Part shown: in pieces, positions 42,601 to 60,600 of the stretch | Layout: each line of letters begins with the position of its first letter | Numbering within the stretch: the stretch's first letter is position 1 | Assembly (NCBI RefSeq): GCF_003918875.1 | Contig: NW_025767079.1 | Span: 4,898,001 to 4,962,000, forward strand | DNA from: Haliotis rubra | Lineage: Eukaryota | Direction of reading: 5' to 3' | DNA length: 64,000 nucleotides | Made by a program: the position numbers

Positions 42601-45600
42601 AACAAAACTGTTTTACCCCAACAAACAAACAGTTCACATTGGCCATGACGCTGCTGTCAATCTCATGGCAGGGACAGCCCTCAGACAGGCGATCATCGCT
42701 CTGGGAGGAACAGTTTAGGTTATGAGCCAGCATGTCTTGCATATGTCAGAGTGAGTGAGTGAGTAAAGATTTACAATCACATCGGCAAACTTATAAATTC
42801 GCGATAAACACAGTTAAATTTAAAAATAAAACAGTCGGCGTAGGACAGTAAAACAAGTACAATATCACGGGAAAGTACTTAGAACTAGTATCTATCTCTA
42901 AAATTTGATTTCTATTTCAAACAATACGATATATAAACGGACTATAGATCACCATACCATGGGGAAACACAGTACTTTTGCTACTGGCATGGACCCTAGC
43001 TGGATTTACACCATCCCTTCAGATGAAAGCGACAGGAGACAAATCTAGCCATAAATTAAGATCACACATATCCTATGATTTAAAATATGGTAGGTCTAAA
43101 CTTTCTTTGAATGTTTTGGGACTTACTTATCCGCATGTTTCAGAGTTTTTGCACGCTATTGGTGGCCGTCTTCACGAACAAACCCATGGGACCCTAGCCG
43201 AGAGCCGTGATGCGGTCCTATACAGTCAAGACATCGCGGCTCTCGGCTAATGGGAACCGAGCACAAGGCCTGAAATGCCATGCTGGCAGACCCAGCTAAT
43301 GCTCTATGAGGATATAAATATATAACACGTATTTTCCCAATCTGTGTAACATTATTTATGAAATTTTATATTTTAGATCACTTGGTAAATATCTTTATTT
43401 ACGAAGTACACCACTTCTGAAACAACTTTTTAATAAATTCAAGTCAGCGAGCCTGACCACCCGATCCCGTTAGTTGTCTGTGTTACTGAAGACCAAATCT
43501 TCACATGTCACAGCTTGTATTTTATACCTTCTCTTGGCGGAGAGTTTGTCAAAGACAACCCATCGGATAGAATGTTTCCAAAAGTTCCAGTAACGGGCGG
43601 AACTTCAAAATCTGCACTGCACCCTTGCACAAGAAGCTGATGTGTTCAAAGCAAGTACGTCCTCATCGCTATCGGTCCAGAACAATTTTTAAGGATGAAG
43701 AAATACAGTAAAAGCTTTAGAATTTGTTATTACTTTTATCAAATCTCATTTCATTTAAATTCATACAAATCCAACCACTCTCGTAAAATTTCATAAAAAT
43801 GTACATCTCTTTAAAATTTCAAGTTATTATCAGCATATACATTTGAAAACTTCCCTGACATTTTCCACTTAAAAAAAACGTGCGGATGTCTCAATACACT
43901 GGTCACGGAAATCAGTTTTAGCAAAACGCCTCCAGACTGAACAATTAGTGTGGTAAACTGCATTAACGAATGTTTAGCATGGTGAACGTCCGTCTTTTGC
44001 ACACATACAGGTCACACCAAGCCTACTCACATGCTAACATATATCACTACTGTGCAATTCAATTTTAGATTGAAACAGCCGAGAATCTTGTTTCAAAATT
44101 TCAAAATTGAGGGCATAGGAGTTTTCTTCATCTTTCCACACATCAACTGTCAGATTATCCCCCATCAAACTTTCTTTTTGATACAGCATGGATGCCGACT
44201 TAACATAATGATTAAAGCCCTGTGTTGGCTTATTTGCCGACTGCTCTCTGTGTGATATAGCCGCAAGACCATTCAGACAGTACCGAAGGTAGTTTATGTA
44301 GTTCGTATGCAGATTCGGGTCAGTCTCACTTCCGTAGACTCTCATATCAAAAGATGAAATTATATCCCTATTGGCTGGTTTTGAAAGTGGCTTCAGTATC
44401 AGAGGCTCTCCGTCCACACACAACTTGCCATATGTTTCTTTGTATTCCTGAGGAAGCTTTTCCGGAAGTCGTGTCGTCTTGGAAACGAAGACGTTCTGGA
44501 TCCAGCACCTTGCAAGAGGTTGCGGTATCTCCGGATGCATGACGCTGTGAGCAAGGACCATTGTTGAGTTGCCGATGTTGGATAAATACGAGTCAACGAC
44601 CAATGGTGCTTTCGGAGTCGATACGTCGTATAACTCTGGGGCTATTTCTAGTTTCAGTGACACGATAAATGGAAGGTTGTTTTGACACAAGAGGTGGTAA
44701 TCAACGAATGATCTGTTAGGGTCATCGATGGTTGGGATACAGAAGTACACTCGGGCGGAGTCGATCAGATGCAGGACGGACCACGGGCGTACTCGAGCTG
44801 AAAGAGATCACGTACAGGTACAGTATGGAATCCCAGAGGATACATTGCCCCAAACATGCAAAGACGGCTACAGATTTCCCTCAAGAAAAATGACATGAGG
44901 CGGTGGGGTAGCCTTGTGGATAAAGTGTCCGCTCGTCACGCTGAGATGAGGTGAGGTGAAATTGTGTTTAACGTCGCGCTTGAGAAGATTTCGCTCATAT
45001 GACGACGTGCATGCGTGTGTATGTGTATGTGCGGCTACTTGTACTAGCCCAGACGTAAGCTGGTTTTATAGTGCTAGCCCACTGAGATACCATGCCACAG
45101 TGAAGCATGAATACCCCACTCAGACACATTATACTGACTCCAAGCCGACCAGCCTGATGTTCCCCTTCATGCCGAGCGCCAGGCAGGGACCAACAAGTAC
45201 CATATTTTAACGTTTTTTGTTATGACGCGGTTTGGGATCGAACCCGCGACCTTCCGACCTCCGTGCGGACGCTTTAACCACTACACCACGGATGCGGTCG
45301 TCATGCTTAGGACCCGGTTCGATTCAACACATGGGTACAATGTGTGAAGCCCATTTCTGTGTAACTTTTCAAGTGTATTTCGAAAAGCGGTGTAAAACCA
45401 TATTATCTCACTCACAGAGATATAATGTTGGTTAAATGTTGCATAATACAGCTACAGTCGACTGTAATACTGCTGAAGATCAAGTCCAACTCGGATCTTC
45501 ACAAGTTTCAAATGTTGTAAGTTCAGTGAATTAGTGGAGGTTGTCAGGAGTTGTCATAACTCGTATCAACATGCACCGTGTATTCTATATGATTAAATAT

Positions 45601-57600: not shown

Positions 57601-60600
57601 ACCCAGCATGTACAACCCCAGGCTCCCAAAGTATCCAGCGGAGGTTCAGACAAGATTTGCATCTTTCCGAACATCGTCGTTTGTCTGGGAATCCATTCTG
57701 AAGGTACCTGGAGCCCCTCACGTGACAGCTAGTCTAAAAAATAACGGCGTTGTTGTGTCAAAGTCGACCAGGCGACCATGCCCGGTGCCAGATTGGTTTC
57801 GTGAAAAGTTCGGCCGACTGTACAACAAGGATCCTGGGGTTACCTTCAGGAAGGTGGAGACAACTCCTATCAAGATGTGCAGGGGAGTTAACTCTAATCC
57901 TTACATGGTAACAGTTAAAAGTCGGGATATCGATTCGAACCAACACACGAATACGGGTTTGTACCTACAGTACTGTCTTGACGCTCTTGGTGATCATTTG
58001 TTCAGGAACAAGATACAGTGCGAATTAAACACCGAGTCACTCCTCCTCAAATCGGCTACCTTCCTCCACGGGGGTGAGAGTGAGATGGCTGATGTGTTGG
58101 CTGTTGAATTCTGGGATGATGAAACTGATGCTGACATGATATGTTTTAATATTGTCAAGTCAGGAATCAGCATCTACCAGGCTCGTATATGTTTTTATCG
58201 ATATGATGATATATTTGAACAAACCTGCAGACTCTAGCGTCACATTTCAAAGTATAGAACTTTACTGTAAGCAGAAAACTGTGATTTGGATATGTTTATT
58301 CCAGGAACATTTTTGTTTACGTTTAGCGTCGTGCTTTCCCTTGAATTTGCAGGGGACACAAGAAATTGGATTCACACGTGACGAGCTTTAATCGCCGAAC
58401 TACCCCTCCACCCGCACACAGTGCCGACGAAGTACAAGTGTTGTCTTGGGATTAACTCCTCTATAATCCTGTTCTAACGCGTTATGTTAGCATTGGAACA
58501 TATATACATGGAAGATTGGAAGATCTTTGCATCTCCTTGACAATGTATTGTTGTACTTGTAACACTGTTACAAAGGTATGTAACTTTGGATCACGTCTTT
58601 GCAACGTTTATGGTAACAGGATGTGCCACCTTGGATGACGTGCCTACCACGGTGTAACAATGGGCTACTTTTTTCAACGTCCTTGAGAACACGATGCTAA
58701 AATTTGGTTTAACTCAATCGGAAGCTTGTTCAGCAAGAGCAGCATATATCTGTATTAGTATGTGTTCACCATACTGGCTTTGTATCCTGTAGTAAAGTGC
58801 CCTTTTCCAACCTTGTGCCTATTGCTATCCTTTTCACAAGGAGCGAACCCGTAAAGATCCGGGTTAGAATTTGTCTTTAGTAACCCTTGTCGTAAGAGGC
58901 GACTAACAGGATCGGGTCGTCAGGCGATTATTTACAGACCGCAGTCATATACCTGGAATACTGTTGAGTGCGTCGTTAAACAGCAAACCAACCAACCAAC
59001 CACAAGGCTAAATCCTTCACATACAGGTTATGTGTAGATATACAGCGCGAACAAAATGAAAGGTCCAAAAAGTTTCCCAATGGATGAAAAACCAAAGACA
59101 AAATTCAGATTCTACGTTTTCATAGTTTTTAATATATGTAGACACTTAAAGAAACACACACAAAATCATCCACAGCTATTTGATAAGCTAGAAAGTGAAA
59201 TGAAATTTGAAGAAATGAAAGAAAGCAGTAAAACAATGAAAACTAAGAAAGGGTTGTGGCCAAGGTTACTCTATATCGCCCTGTCTTTTCATCCTCGTTG
59301 CGGAAACGTTTGATATTAGTATGAGCGCCTAAAGACATTGCAGAGAGAACCAGACAAGTGAAGAATATGAATGAAGACAGTGTGCAGATAACTCACTTTT
59401 CTTCTGAATTATGCTTAATATTGACATTTTGCCTTCTTTGTGTAGCTTATCAAGATAACTAAAAAGTTTGAAAAAAGAAGCTATTTCGATGGTTTTCATG
59501 CTAGCACTAATATGAAACTGTCAAATCTGTCAGGATTTCGAGTATAACTATCATTCAGAAGAGTTTAAAGTATCACAATAGGATTTAACTTTATTTCAGA
59601 TAGGGTTGCTGATATAATACAAAGAAAAGGGGGAAATACTAAGTACTAACTGACGACTTGCTAGCTGGAAAAAGTGACATTAAAGAGAAAGACAATTTGA
59701 AGTTCACACTCGGATTTACTGACATTTAGATACCCCCCCCCCTGCAATTTATGTGCAAAGTAAGCGAACCTCCCCTGCATGTCATGTACAACATCGATGA
59801 CCCCGACCCCCATATTTTTATGCATAATTTTAAATTAGTTATATTTTCAAAATTTATGACACCCCCACCCCATCCGTACATACGTGCAAAATTGATGACC
59901 CTCCCACCTCCCTAGAACAAAATGTATGATGTGAGTGAGTGAGTTAATATTTAACGTCACATCGGCAATATCTCAGNNNNNNNNNNNNNNNNNNNNNNNN
60001 NNNNNNNNNNNNNNNNNNNNNNNNNNNNNNNNNNNNNNNNNNNNNNNNNNNNNNNNNNNNNNNNNNNNNNNNNNNNNNNNNNNNNNNNNNNNNNNNNNNN
60101 NNNNNNNNNNNNNNNNNNNNNNNNNNNNNNNNNNNNNNNNNNNNNNNNNNNNNNNNNNNNNNNNNNNNNNNNNTGTAAATAAAGCGATCGAATATAGCCT
60201 GCAGTTCCTTCCCTTTGTATGCGCACCACCAAGCTGAACATCTCGTGTCATATCCGGGTTATGGCTTCGCCGGTAAGGACTTTCGGGCTAATATACAGAA
60301 GCTAATTTGGTTCATGAAAATATGAACATGATAATTTACAAATTCATCTGTATTTGTGTGCCGAATGCCTACAATGCTGCTTGTGGAGAGATTCAAGATA
60401 ACGTATATATTTGACTCGTACAATGGCCAGACATTGCGATTTGTGGATCTTGAATAATATCTCTATAGATCTAATTCATTACCAACGTACACCCACATGC
60501 ACAAGAAATATATTAATGGTCCGATAGAGCATAACAGGACAAGGTGCGTACTCTAGTACGGATTTGTTGACATGTAACTTAAGGGTTCAGGTCTTTGTGA

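What the first reader, a model, noticed from the sequence alone, without database searches (positions are those of the whole stretch)
44034..58237. Thioesterase - PhyH dioxygenase - thioesterase trio: candidate animal acyl-tailoring gene cluster
Seen: within ~14 kb an intronless PhyH-type Fe/2OG oxygenase is flanked by two paralogous double-hotdog thioesterase-like genes that share a 101-nt phase 2/1 exon and the DxNxHxN motif. Thioesterase 1 and the oxygenase are head-to-head, with start codons ~1.1 kb apart (49243 and 50360). Known: PhyH-family enzymes often act on acyl-CoA thioesters, and hotdog thioesterases hydrolyse acyl-CoA/ACP. Inference: a co-regulated modify-then-release module for dietary algal (phytol-derived or branched) or specialised lipids. 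Such clusters are rare in animals. Caveat: both families can be expanded in molluscs, so adjacency could be chance.
Basis: partly seen in the sequence, partly recalled or inferred. Interest (0 to 1): 0.65.

Follow-up and report, generated by a model that had tools for sequence, protein, structure and literature searches.

The report
Abalone thioesterase–oxygenase–thioesterase gene neighbourhood
Two (in fact three) thioesterase genes of a plant/bacterial-like type and one iron/2-oxoglutarate oxygenase gene do sit side by side in this abalone DNA and also in another abalone species, but nothing yet shows that they work together as a pathway.

Summary
The window is Haliotis rubra-like DNA (exons 100% identical to RefSeq proteins). 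The trio is real. TE1 (- strand, 46856-44034), a single-coding-exon PhyH-superfamily oxygenase (50360-51469, +) and TE2a (55505-58237, +) are all annotated genes. Exon 1 of a fourth gene, TE2b, lies at 60824. Both thioesterases have a 101-nt phase 2/1 exon and the D-x-N-x-H-T-N motif.

TE1's start codon is at 46856, not 49243, so the two start codons are 3.5 kb apart, not 1.1 kb.

The thioesterases belong to a mollusc-rich family of double-hotdog, Fat-like acyl-ACP thioesterases (708 representatives). The oxygenase belongs to a lophotrochozoan PhyH-like clade with an intact HxD...H triad and a C-terminal membrane anchor. It is not a PHYH orthologue.

In H. rufescens the three orthologues carry consecutive GeneIDs (LOC124115475-477), so the neighbourhood is conserved within the genus. 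In 5 of 5 other molluscs, the sampled members of the two families lie on different contigs. No fusions were found, no other pathway gene is in the window, and the left neighbour is housekeeping DDOST.

Functional coupling is therefore unproven. Expression, localisation and structures could not be tested.

The parts
44034..44797 (-). TE1 (H. rubra LOC124287060) exon 3 with stop codon. Encodes both hotdog halves, including TDPNLHTN and YQKES.
   Evidence: Translation is contained 100% in RefSeq protein P0288. Acceptor CTTTCAG. Pfam 4HBT_2 31.1 bits.
45664..45764 (-). TE1 exon 2, 101 nt, phase 2/1. Encodes IGQQLGYTRQFLSPSSVRVRIPGGFPYEAFDGA.
   Evidence: This N-terminal element is conserved across the family.
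46840..46856 (-). TE1 coding exon 1 (ATG plus 14 nt, donor GTAAGA): the annotated start codon.
   Evidence: A pattern from the P0288 N-terminus matches once; 0.00 matches expected. Sequence. Translation MSAFK is the start of P0288.
47683..47718 (-). Counterpart of the alternative first coding exon used by isoform X1 in H. rufescens and H. cracherodii. In the window the position of its ATG reads ACG.
   Evidence: tblastn of P0122 residues 2-13, 100%. Sequence and translation. P0292.
50360..51469 (+). PhyH-superfamily Fe(II)/2OG oxygenase, single coding exon, 369 aa plus stop. WLHIDQ at residue 111, WDSRLVHAN at 206, C-terminal hydrophobic tail ITLSVFAVLVALTVYFW.
   Evidence: Exact protein is in NCBI (P0280). 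Pfam PhyH 22.7 bits. H113, D115, H212, R221, R226 and R228 are invariant in 34 of 34 sequences.
50336..50349 (+). Splice-acceptor-like tract (tttctttcttccag) 10 nt upstream of the oxygenase ATG. Suggests a 5' non-coding exon further upstream.
   Evidence: Sequence read directly. The H. rufescens and H. cracherodii orthologues have extra N-terminal residues. Inference only.
55505..55533 (+). TE2a (LOC124287057) coding exon 1 of isoform X2 (29 nt, MASRRSVSE plus AG, donor GT). Isoform X1 reads from 55388 and has a further exon at about 54712-54759.
   Evidence: Sequence. tblastn of P0283 and P0123. My first coordinate was off by one base.
56554..56654 (+). TE2a exon 2, 101 nt, phase 2/1.
   Evidence: Translation is contained in P0123.
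57450..58237 (+). TE2a exon 3 with stop codon. Encodes both hotdog halves, including IDSNQHTN and HGGES.
   Evidence: 100% contained in P0123. Pfam 4HBT_2 in two stretches, Acyl-ACP_TE_C 21.1 bits against a cut-off of 21.
60186..60852 (+). Duplicated 5' region of TE2a (76-79% identical to 54679-55502), followed by coding exon 1 of TE2b (LOC124287059) at 60824-60852. The rest of the gene lies outside the window.
   Evidence: blastn self-comparison. P0125 residues 1-10 at 100%. Translation and GT donor.

Best explanation
This is an inherited gene neighbourhood in abalone, not a demonstrated pathway cluster. A small array of mollusc-type, Fat-like double-hotdog thioesterase genes (TE1, TE2a, TE2b) has one tail-anchored PhyH-superfamily Fe(II)/2-oxoglutarate oxygenase gene lodged between TE1 and TE2a.

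Shown: all are intact, annotated genes. The thioesterases keep the Asp, His and Glu that are at least 94% conserved in their family. These residues align with the catalytic motif region of plant FatB. The oxygenase keeps the HxD...H iron triad and invariant arginines.

Inferred: each thioesterase binds an acyl chain in its N-terminal hotdog and hydrolyses an acyl-ACP or acyl-CoA thioester with the C-terminal hotdog. The oxygenase sits on the cytosolic face of an organelle membrane by its C-terminal anchor and hydroxylates a substrate that is not known.

Most likely the two enzyme types act independently. Their adjacency would then reflect local duplication history on a chromosome that carries most Haliotis copies of both gene groups.
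For: Gene reality and structure:
- Every window exon translates to a 100% match in RefSeq proteins P0288, P0280 and P0123.

Thioesterase family:
- 708 representatives at E<=1e-3 and 415 at E<=1e-10.
- Named members come from gastropods, bivalves and Branchiostoma.
- The nearest Atlas clusters are Mollusca (707, 114 and 85 members), then plant and bacterial acyl-ACP thioesterases.
- The family profile matches single-hotdog YbgC/FadM-type chains with both halves, and Fat-type chains 5x04, 9mqf, 2ess, 7hqq, 2own, 8p8k and 4gak across the domain junction.
- D205 is kept in 78/80, H209 in 78/80, N211 in 64/80 and E253 in 75/80.

Oxygenase family:
- 236 relatives, and the triad is invariant.
- 24 of 44 members have a C-terminal hydrophobic tail by a crude rule.
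- The window copy is one of three Haliotis-specific paralogue groups, sister to a Gigantopelta gene.

Conservation in the genus:
- H. rufescens LOC124115475/476/477 are TE1, PhyH and TE2.

No sign of coupling:
- 0 of 5 other species share a contig.
- 0 of 10 long proteins are fusions.
- The left neighbour is DDOST/OST48.
- 0 of 87 ORFs between and inside the genes have a Pfam hit.
- TE1 and TE2 are not sisters (AU test p=8e-6).
Against: - The trio is kept in two Haliotis lineages (rubra/asinina and rufescens/cracherodii). Random placement makes such an adjacency rare (about 0.001 expected pairs).
- TE1 and TE2 are old paralogues, each with a closer relative elsewhere in the genome, yet both still flank the oxygenase. 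An ancient, maintained arrangement could look like this.
- TE1 and the oxygenase are divergent. CpG observed/expected is 0.9-1.0 at 49000-50500 against 0.73 for the window, so a shared regulatory region is not excluded.
- The test outside Haliotis used only the few paralogues that happened to be named. It identified contigs by length alone, so it is weak.
- H. rufescens adjacency rests on consecutive identifiers, not coordinates. In H. rubra the consecutive identifiers 057/059/060 do mark physical neighbours, but not their order.
Confidence: 0.6

Rival explanations
1. The three genes form a co-regulated 'modify then release' module. The oxygenase hydroxylates an acyl thioester (phytol-derived, branched or specialised), and a flanking thioesterase then frees the product.
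For: - Neighbourhood conserved within the genus.
- TE1 and the oxygenase are divergent.
- All catalytic residues are intact.
- Adjacency is improbable under random placement (counts; gene number from PMC6774278).
Against: - Not a PHYH orthologue: no PTS2-like N-terminus, and no PDB sequence hit even by profile.
- The PhyH domain does not imply a CoA substrate (PMC12709175, abstract).
- The start codons are 3.5 kb apart, with SINE-like repeats between them.
- No shared contig in 5 of 5 other molluscs sampled.
- No fusion in 10 of 10 long proteins.
- Only two enzyme families are present, and no core synthase or ligase is in 64 kb.
Confidence: 0.15
2. The oxygenase is a passenger. A single-coding-exon copy of a multi-copy family was inserted into, or duplicated within, an older thioesterase array and has stayed there by inertia, with no functional link.
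For: - The coding sequence has one exon, whereas the thioesterases have three.
- The copy belongs to a Haliotis-specific burst of three paralogue groups.
- The array is still duplicating: TE2a, TE2b and TE2c are 90-91% identical, and the promoter region is duplicated.
Against: - There is a probable 5' intron, and no poly(A) tract or target-site duplication was seen by eye at the 3' end.
- The exon structure of the other family members could not be examined, so 'single exon' may be the family norm.
Confidence: 0.15
3. The thioesterase-like proteins no longer hydrolyse thioesters and serve instead as acyl or lipid binders, so no 'release' step exists.
For: - Pfam scores are near threshold: TE1 Acyl-ACP_TE_C 13.4 bits against a cut-off of 21.
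- TE2c (P0124) has Thr at the Asn of the motif.
- No enzyme of this animal family was found described in the literature searches.
Against: - Asp, His and Glu are kept in 75-78 of 80 family members, and in TE1, TE2a and TE2b.
- The motif aligns with that of FatB in 5x04.
Confidence: 0.07

Closest known systems
Fat-type acyl-ACP thioesterases of plants and bacteria (FatA/FatB; PDB 5x04, 7hqq, 2own, 2ess, 4gak, 8p8k, 9mqf)
   Same: - Two hotdog halves in one chain.
- The family profile aligns across the junction of the halves.
- The motif W-x-D-x-D-x-x-x-H-x-N aligns with WNDLDVNQHVNN of 5x04.
- A conserved Glu lies about 44 residues later.
- In plant enzymes the N-terminal half forms the acyl pocket and the C-terminal half carries the catalytic residues (PMC5830452, passages and reference titles).
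   Different: - Animal proteins.
- Pfam's N-terminal Acyl-ACP_TE model does not match the window proteins.
- The C-terminal model is borderline for TE2a and fails for TE1.
- They have their own conserved N-terminal element (IARQL..EFL.P..RV.IPGGFPYEAFD).
- The carrier (ACP or CoA) is unknown.
- That Asp/Asn/His/Glu are the catalytic residues of FatB is recalled, not taken from a call.
YbgC/FadM-type single-hotdog acyl-CoA thioesterases (Pfam 4HBT_2; PDB 5byu, 3qy3, 1njk, 1s5u)
   Same: - Best sequence matches in the PDB (E 6e-11 to 2e-8).
- Both halves of the abalone family match them.
- Pfam 4HBT_2 scores are above its cut-off.
- TE1 gives weak NCBIfam YbgC hits.
   Different: - Those are single-domain proteins that form oligomers; here two diverged halves are fused.
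- hhalign finds no similarity between the two halves (probability 0.3%).
PHYH (phytanoyl-CoA 2-hydroxylase) and PHYHD1
   Same: Pfam PhyH family, HxD...H triad and conserved arginines. Atlas neighbours are all PhyH clusters.
   Different: - No PTS2-like N-terminus (read directly; the motif is recalled).
- No match to any PDB chain at E<=1, with the single sequence or the profile.
- The only weak hit of a relative is YbiU/DUF1479, 2csg, at E 0.87.
- C-terminal membrane anchor.
- The family was seen only in molluscs and the annelid Owenia among named hits.
- No bacterial relative was found by pattern scan.
Mollusc polyketide pathways built on animal FAS-like PKSs (AFPKs)
   Same: The same animal group. 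These pathways have an unfilled need for a stand-alone thioesterase and for tailoring enzymes. AFPK clades 1-3 lack a TE domain, and for most the off-loading mechanism is unknown (PMC10764717, passage).
   Different: - No PKS or FAS domain is in the 64-kb window.
- The authors state that tailoring enzymes do not appear to be clustered with the PKS genes (PMC10515154, passage).
- Any link to TE1/TE2 is my speculation.
Animal type II acyl-CoA thioesterases with two hotdog domains (Them1/ACOT11-like)
   Same: Two hotdog domains in one animal protein that hydrolyses acyl thioesters (PMC10663673, abstract in the listing).
   Different: A different hotdog family (Pfam 4HBT, with a START domain). The abalone proteins match 4HBT_2 and Acyl-ACP_TE_C instead. 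No direct comparison was run.

Membership tests
Fat-type acyl-ACP thioesterase (Pfam PF01643 + PF20791) | Two hotdog domains in tandem in one chain | tested here: met
   - Two 4HBT_2 stretches in TE2a, P0123, P0125, P0128 and P0122.
- The family profile matches single-hotdog chains with positions 89-154 and 177-251.
- No 3-D model: the structure jobs failed.
Fat-type acyl-ACP thioesterase (Pfam PF01643 + PF20791) | Catalytic motif D-x-N-x-H-V/T-N and a downstream Glu/Cys in the C-terminal hotdog | tested here: met
   - TDPNLHTN / YQKES in TE1 and IDSNQHTN / HGGES in TE2a.
- Aligned to DLDVNQHVNN of 5x04.
- D in 78/80, H in 78/80, E in 75/80; the middle position is N in 28/80 and Y in 43/80.
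Fat-type acyl-ACP thioesterase (Pfam PF01643 + PF20791) | Score above Pfam's gathering cut-off for the C-terminal domain model (21 bits) | tested here: inconclusive
   - TE2a exon 21.1 bits; P0123 20.9.
- TE2b (P0125) 25.4; H. rufescens TE2 28.4.
- TE1 exon 13.4, which fails.
Fat-type acyl-ACP thioesterase (Pfam PF01643 + PF20791) | Match to the N-terminal domain model PF01643 | tested here: not met
   No hit at E<=1 for TE1, TE2a or their orthologues. Only sub-threshold hits (16-17 bits against a cut-off of 23.7) in two distant family members.
Fat-type acyl-ACP thioesterase (Pfam PF01643 + PF20791) | Hydrolysis of acyl-ACP | not testable with these tools
   Needs an enzyme assay.
4HBT_2 thioesterase-like superfamily (PF13279) | Score above the gathering cut-off (25.5 bits) | tested here: met
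   TE1 exon 31.1 bits; TE2a exon 26.2 bits.
PhyH family of Fe(II)/2OG oxygenases (PF05721) | Score above the gathering cut-off (22 bits) | tested here: met
   22.7 bits, only just above the cut-off. The H. cracherodii orthologue scores 20.3 (below); relatives reach 42.5.
PhyH family of Fe(II)/2OG oxygenases (PF05721) | 2-His-1-carboxylate iron triad (HxD...H) plus a basic residue for 2-oxoglutarate | tested here: met
   H113, D115 and H212 are invariant in 34/34, and so are R221, R226 and R228. Which arginine binds 2-oxoglutarate was not determined.
PhyH family of Fe(II)/2OG oxygenases (PF05721) | Double-stranded beta-helix fold | not tested
PHYH proper (peroxisomal phytanoyl-CoA 2-hydroxylase) | Orthology or close similarity to PHYH, and an N-terminal PTS2 signal | tested here: not met
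   - No PDB chain matched at E<=1, by sequence or by profile.
- No R/K-L/V/I-x5-H/Q-L/A word in the first 40 residues, read directly (the motif is recalled).
- Instead there is a C-terminal hydrophobic tail.
Metabolic gene cluster (animal) | Neighbouring non-homologous genes of one pathway, with conserved linkage | tested here: inconclusive
   - Linkage is kept in Haliotis.
- No shared contig in 5 of 5 other molluscs for the sampled paralogues.
- Only two families are present, and no other enzyme gene is in the window.
Metabolic gene cluster (animal) | Co-expression and a shared pathway shown biochemically | not testable with these tools
   No expression data or assays are available here.

The most novel reading that the evidence does not exclude
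The mollusc-expanded, stand-alone Fat-like thioesterases, TE1 and TE2 among them, are the missing trans-acting off-loading enzymes for the TE-less animal FAS-like polyketide synthases of molluscs. The tail-anchored PhyH-like oxygenase between them would then tailor the released acid or the carrier-bound chain. If so, this would be a conserved two-enzyme tailoring cassette, and one of the few such cassettes known in an animal genome.
Probability: 0.08. Interest if true: 0.7.

Novelty: new member of a known kind. Interest (0 to 1): 0.3.

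Why it matters
If the three genes worked together, they would be a rare animal example of physically clustered lipid or polyketide tailoring enzymes. They would also give a handle on two large mollusc enzyme families that have no known function.

As the evidence stands, the useful results are narrower:
- A corrected gene map of the locus.
- Abalone and other molluscs carry many copies of a plant/bacterial-style double-hotdog thioesterase whose substrate in animals is unknown.
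- The 'phytanoyl-CoA dioxygenase' label on the neighbouring gene says nothing reliable about its substrate.

Tried and rejected
An ATG at 49283 gives a 29-nt exon with a GT donor, like TE2a's exon 1. No protein model uses it or the ATG at 49243. I rejected both in favour of 46856.
- **Similarity between the two 101-nt exons.** The TE1 exon-2 peptide scored 28 against TE2's upstream region and 34 on the control strand. The exons correspond by position, length and phase, not by detectable sequence similarity.
- **Internal repeat.** hhalign of the N-half against the C-half of the thioesterase family gave probability 0.3%.
- **Bacterial and archaeal relatives of the oxygenase.** The aim was to look for operon partners. 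6 pattern matches were found, and none was confirmed.
- **Solved structures.** The PDB sequence and profile searches with the oxygenase gave 0 hits. An Aplysia relative gave only 2csg, at E 0.87.
- **NCBIfam.** Nothing for the oxygenase; weak YbgC/FadM hits for TE1.
- **Fusion proteins.** 0 of 10 long thioesterase-family proteins carry another enzyme domain.
- **Other genes in the window.**
  - 10 large ORFs gave nothing significant.
  - 139 flank ORFs of 65 aa or more gave only OST48, one SAD/SRA exon and one probably spurious zinc-ribbon hit.
  - 87 ORFs of 45 aa or more between and inside the trio genes gave 0 hits.
- **RNA genes.** One marginal tRNA-like hit inside a SINE copy, and no tRNA by ARAGORN.
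- **Literature.** No paper holds both 'phytanoyl-CoA dioxygenase' and 'Haliotis'. The 6 papers with that term and 'mollus' are expression or proteome lists (listing only). Nothing on animal Fat-like thioesterases turned up (the query was poorly built). No mollusc thioesterase-dioxygenase cluster turned up. The abalone genome paper PMC13544226 does not mention thioesterase, phytanoyl or dioxygenase.
- **Structure prediction and fold search.** Not obtained.

Full report
**What the window is.** The 64-kb window has about 40% G+C and one run of 197 N at 59977-60173, which I left untouched. Its thioesterase and oxygenase exons are 100% identical to Haliotis rubra RefSeq proteins, so it is blacklip-abalone DNA or something indistinguishable from it. 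It is not human. Window exons were searched and checked one at a time. Whole-protein analyses used the database proteins that those exons match (P0288, P0280, P0123).

**The observation.**
- Pfam gives 4HBT_2 for the two outer ORFs (31.1 and 26.2 bits, cut-off 25.5).
- It gives a marginal Acyl-ACP_TE_C match for each (13.4 and 21.1 bits, cut-off 21).
- It gives PhyH for the middle ORF (22.7 bits, cut-off 22).
- The outer proteins are 31% identical to each other.

**Gene models, exon by exon against RefSeq proteins.**
- TE1 (LOC124287060, - strand): 46856-46840, 45764-45664 (101 nt) and 44797-44034.
- Oxygenase: 50360-51469.
- TE2a (LOC124287057, + strand): 55505-55533, 56554-56654 (101 nt) and 57450-58237.

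The 101-nt phase 2/1 exon and the D-x-N-x-H-T-N motif are therefore confirmed. The two 101-nt exons show no detectable sequence similarity to each other.

**Three corrections.**
1. TE1's start codon is at 46856, not 49243. H. asinina uses the same short first exon. In H. rufescens and H. cracherodii, isoform X2 uses it too. An alternative first coding exon of isoform X1 in those two species maps to 47718-47683, where the window reads ACG in place of ATG. The TE1 and oxygenase start codons are thus 3.5 kb apart. The interval holds copies of at least two interspersed repeat families.
2. 'Intronless' applies to the coding sequence only. A good splice acceptor ends 10 nt before the oxygenase ATG.
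3. The array goes on. Coding exon 1 of a third thioesterase gene (TE2b, LOC124287059, 90% identical to TE2a) lies at 60824-60852, behind a 76-79% copy of TE2a's 5' region.

**The thioesterases.** A profile of TE1 and TE2 finds 708 representatives at E<=1e-3 among 1.84 billion proteins.
- Of the 20 representatives I looked up, 17 carry a source's name. They come from gastropods (Haliotis, Lottia, Batillaria, Arion), bivalves (Pinctada, Potamilus, Sinanodonta, Argopecten, Mytilus) and Branchiostoma. One record of an unnamed source is called FadM.
- The nearest Atlas clusters are mollusc clusters of 707, 114 and 85 members. Plant and bacterial acyl-ACP thioesterase clusters follow.
- Against solved structures, the family profile matches single-hotdog YbgC/FadM-type thioesterases with each of its halves. 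It matches Fat-type acyl-ACP thioesterases (5x04, 9mqf, 2ess, 7hqq, 2own, 8p8k, 4gak) across the junction of the halves. The family's W-x-D-x-D-x-x-x-H-x-N aligns with WNDLDVNQHVNN of Umbellularia FatB.
- In 80 family members, Asp205 and His209 are kept in 78, Asn211 in 64 and Glu253 in 75. The middle position of the motif is Asn in 28 and Tyr in 43.
- In plant enzymes the N-terminal hotdog forms the acyl pocket and the C-terminal one carries the catalytic residues (PMC5830452, passages). That these residues are Asp, Asn, His and Glu is my recollection, not a result of a call.
- The short N-terminal stretch before the first hotdog is a conserved family element rather than an obvious cleavable signal.

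I conclude that TE1, TE2a and TE2b are probably active acyl-thioester hydrolases of a Fat-like, double-hotdog type. Whether the carrier is ACP or CoA is open.

**The oxygenase.** 236 relatives were found. The named ones among the 120 listed are from molluscs and the annelid Owenia.
- H113, D115 and H212 are invariant in 34 of 34 aligned sequences, and so are three arginines. The iron triad is therefore intact.
- 24 of 44 members, this one included, end in a hydrophobic segment preceded by basic residues. That is the pattern of a tail-anchored membrane protein (a crude rule of my own).
- It is not PHYH. There is no PTS2-like N-terminus. No PDB chain matches at E<=1, even with the family profile. 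Pfam and NCBIfam offer nothing closer, and no bacterial relative was found by pattern scan.
- Membership of the PhyH Pfam family does not imply an acyl-CoA substrate. Human PHYHD1 demethylates free 2'-O-methyl nucleosides (PMC12709175, abstract).
- In a tree, the window copy and its orthologues in three other Haliotis species form one of three Haliotis-specific paralogue groups. These are sister to a Gigantopelta gene (quick tree, SH-aLRT support only).

**Is the neighbourhood conserved?** Within the genus, yes.
- In H. rufescens, TE1, the oxygenase orthologue and TE2 are LOC124115475, LOC124115476 and LOC124115477, with consecutive XP accessions.
- Consecutive identifiers are not coordinates. 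However, in H. rubra the consecutive identifiers 057, 059 and 060 are all within this 20-kb span. They are not in positional order. I therefore read them as evidence of proximity, not of order.

Outside the genus I could compare only members that happened to carry names. In Pinctada imbricata, Sinanodonta woodiana, Argopecten irradians, Batillaria attramentaria and Potamilus streckersoni, the sampled thioesterase and PhyH-like genes lie on contigs of different length (0 of 5 shared). This is weak negative evidence, because orthologues were not identified and both families have many copies.

**History of the array.** TE1 and TE2 are not each other's closest relatives.
- TE2 groups with a gene on another contig (LOC125375874 type, support 100).
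- TE1 groups with LOC124280822 (support 91).
- A tree that forces TE1 and TE2 into an exclusive clade is rejected (AU p=8e-6). I named that group after seeing the tree.
- TE2a, TE2b and TE2c are recent copies, 90-91% identical.

So an old pair of paralogues flanks the oxygenase, and one side is still duplicating.

**Surroundings.**
- The left neighbour, also on the - strand, is DDOST/OST48, a housekeeping glycosylation subunit. Its exons lie at 32000-32215, 32751-33065, 33363-33602, 35561-35755 and 39398-39697.
- Among 139 flank ORFs of 65 aa or more, the only other Pfam hits are one SAD/SRA exon and a zinc-ribbon hit that probably comes from a tandem repeat.
- 0 of 87 ORFs of 45 aa or more between and inside the trio genes have a hit.
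- No synthase, ligase or other tailoring enzyme is in the window.
- 0 of 10 long thioesterase-family proteins carry a PhyH domain.

**Chance.** At least 7 thioesterase-family and at least 4 PhyH-like genes are known in H. rubra, among 44,137 predicted genes (PMC6774278, passages). Random placement would give about 0.001 immediately adjacent pairs (my arithmetic). The true family sizes are probably larger. The adjacency is therefore not a likely accident for this particular pair. But it was picked from a scan that could have flagged many pairs, and tandemly duplicating regions are not random draws.

**Verdict.** The anatomy is real and largely as described, with a corrected TE1 start and a fourth gene. 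The best-supported reading is an inherited, genus-conserved neighbourhood of two enzyme families whose functions are individually plausible but unlinked by any evidence (confidence 0.6). It would gain most from real microsynteny outside Haliotis and from co-expression data.

**The boldest reading not excluded.**
- Mollusc AFPK polyketide synthases of clades 1-3 lack a thioesterase domain, and for most the off-loading mechanism is unknown (PMC10764717, passage).
- These stand-alone Fat-like thioesterases could be that missing activity, with the oxygenase as a tailoring partner.
- Against it, the same group reports that tailoring enzymes do not appear to be clustered with the PKS genes (PMC10515154, passage), and no PKS is nearby.

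Noticed in passing
window 60186-60852 (+): A third thioesterase gene (TE2b, LOC124287059) begins here. A 76-79% copy of TE2a's 5' region is followed by coding exon 1 (MATRKSVSER). Its other exons are not in the window. The 197-N gap lies just upstream, at 59977-60173.
   Followed up: partly
window 47683-47721 (-): This is the counterpart of the alternative first coding exon of TE1 isoform X1 in H. rufescens and H. cracherodii. It reads ACG where those species have ATG, so this longer isoform probably cannot start here in H. rubra.
   Followed up: partly
window 50336-50349 (+): A polypyrimidine tract plus CAG lies 10 nt before the oxygenase ATG, so the gene probably has a non-coding 5' exon. 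CpG observed/expected is 0.9-1.0 at 49000-50500, against 0.73 for the window.
   Followed up: partly
window about 32000-39697 (-): A DDOST/OST48 gene (oligosaccharyltransferase 48-kDa subunit) is the left neighbour of TE1, on the same strand. Five exons were recognised. Its 5' end was not located.
   Followed up: partly
window, many sites, e.g. 47188-47273, 48890-49045, 51478-51636, 53476-53633, 25805-25954: A SINE-like repeat occurs in about 15 copies, 75-95% alike. The copy at 25884-25950 just reaches Rfam's tRNA score (29.3 bits), so the element may be tRNA-derived. A second repeat family (49770-49923) has at least 12 copies.
   Followed up: partly
window 45798-46255: A 61-nt tandem repeat, 7.5 copies, 90% matches, lies in TE1 intron 1.
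   Followed up: no
window 30541-31395: A tandem repeat with a unit of about 23 codons, about nine copies by eye, is open in frames on both strands. It is the likely source of the spurious PaaD zinc-ribbon Pfam hit.
   Followed up: no
not in the window: H. rubra LOC124287209 (P0124), same scaffold: This 91%-identical TE2 copy has Thr in place of the Asn in D-x-N-x-H. Two further PhyH-like paralogues (LOC124287169 and LOC124287170) are on the same 7.4-Mb scaffold.
   Followed up: no
somewhere in window 1-44000 or 58238-64000 (ORF not identified): One ORF of 65 aa or more matches the Pfam SAD/SRA domain (E 1.5e-6). It may be an exon of a UHRF-like gene or of a mobile element.
   Followed up: no
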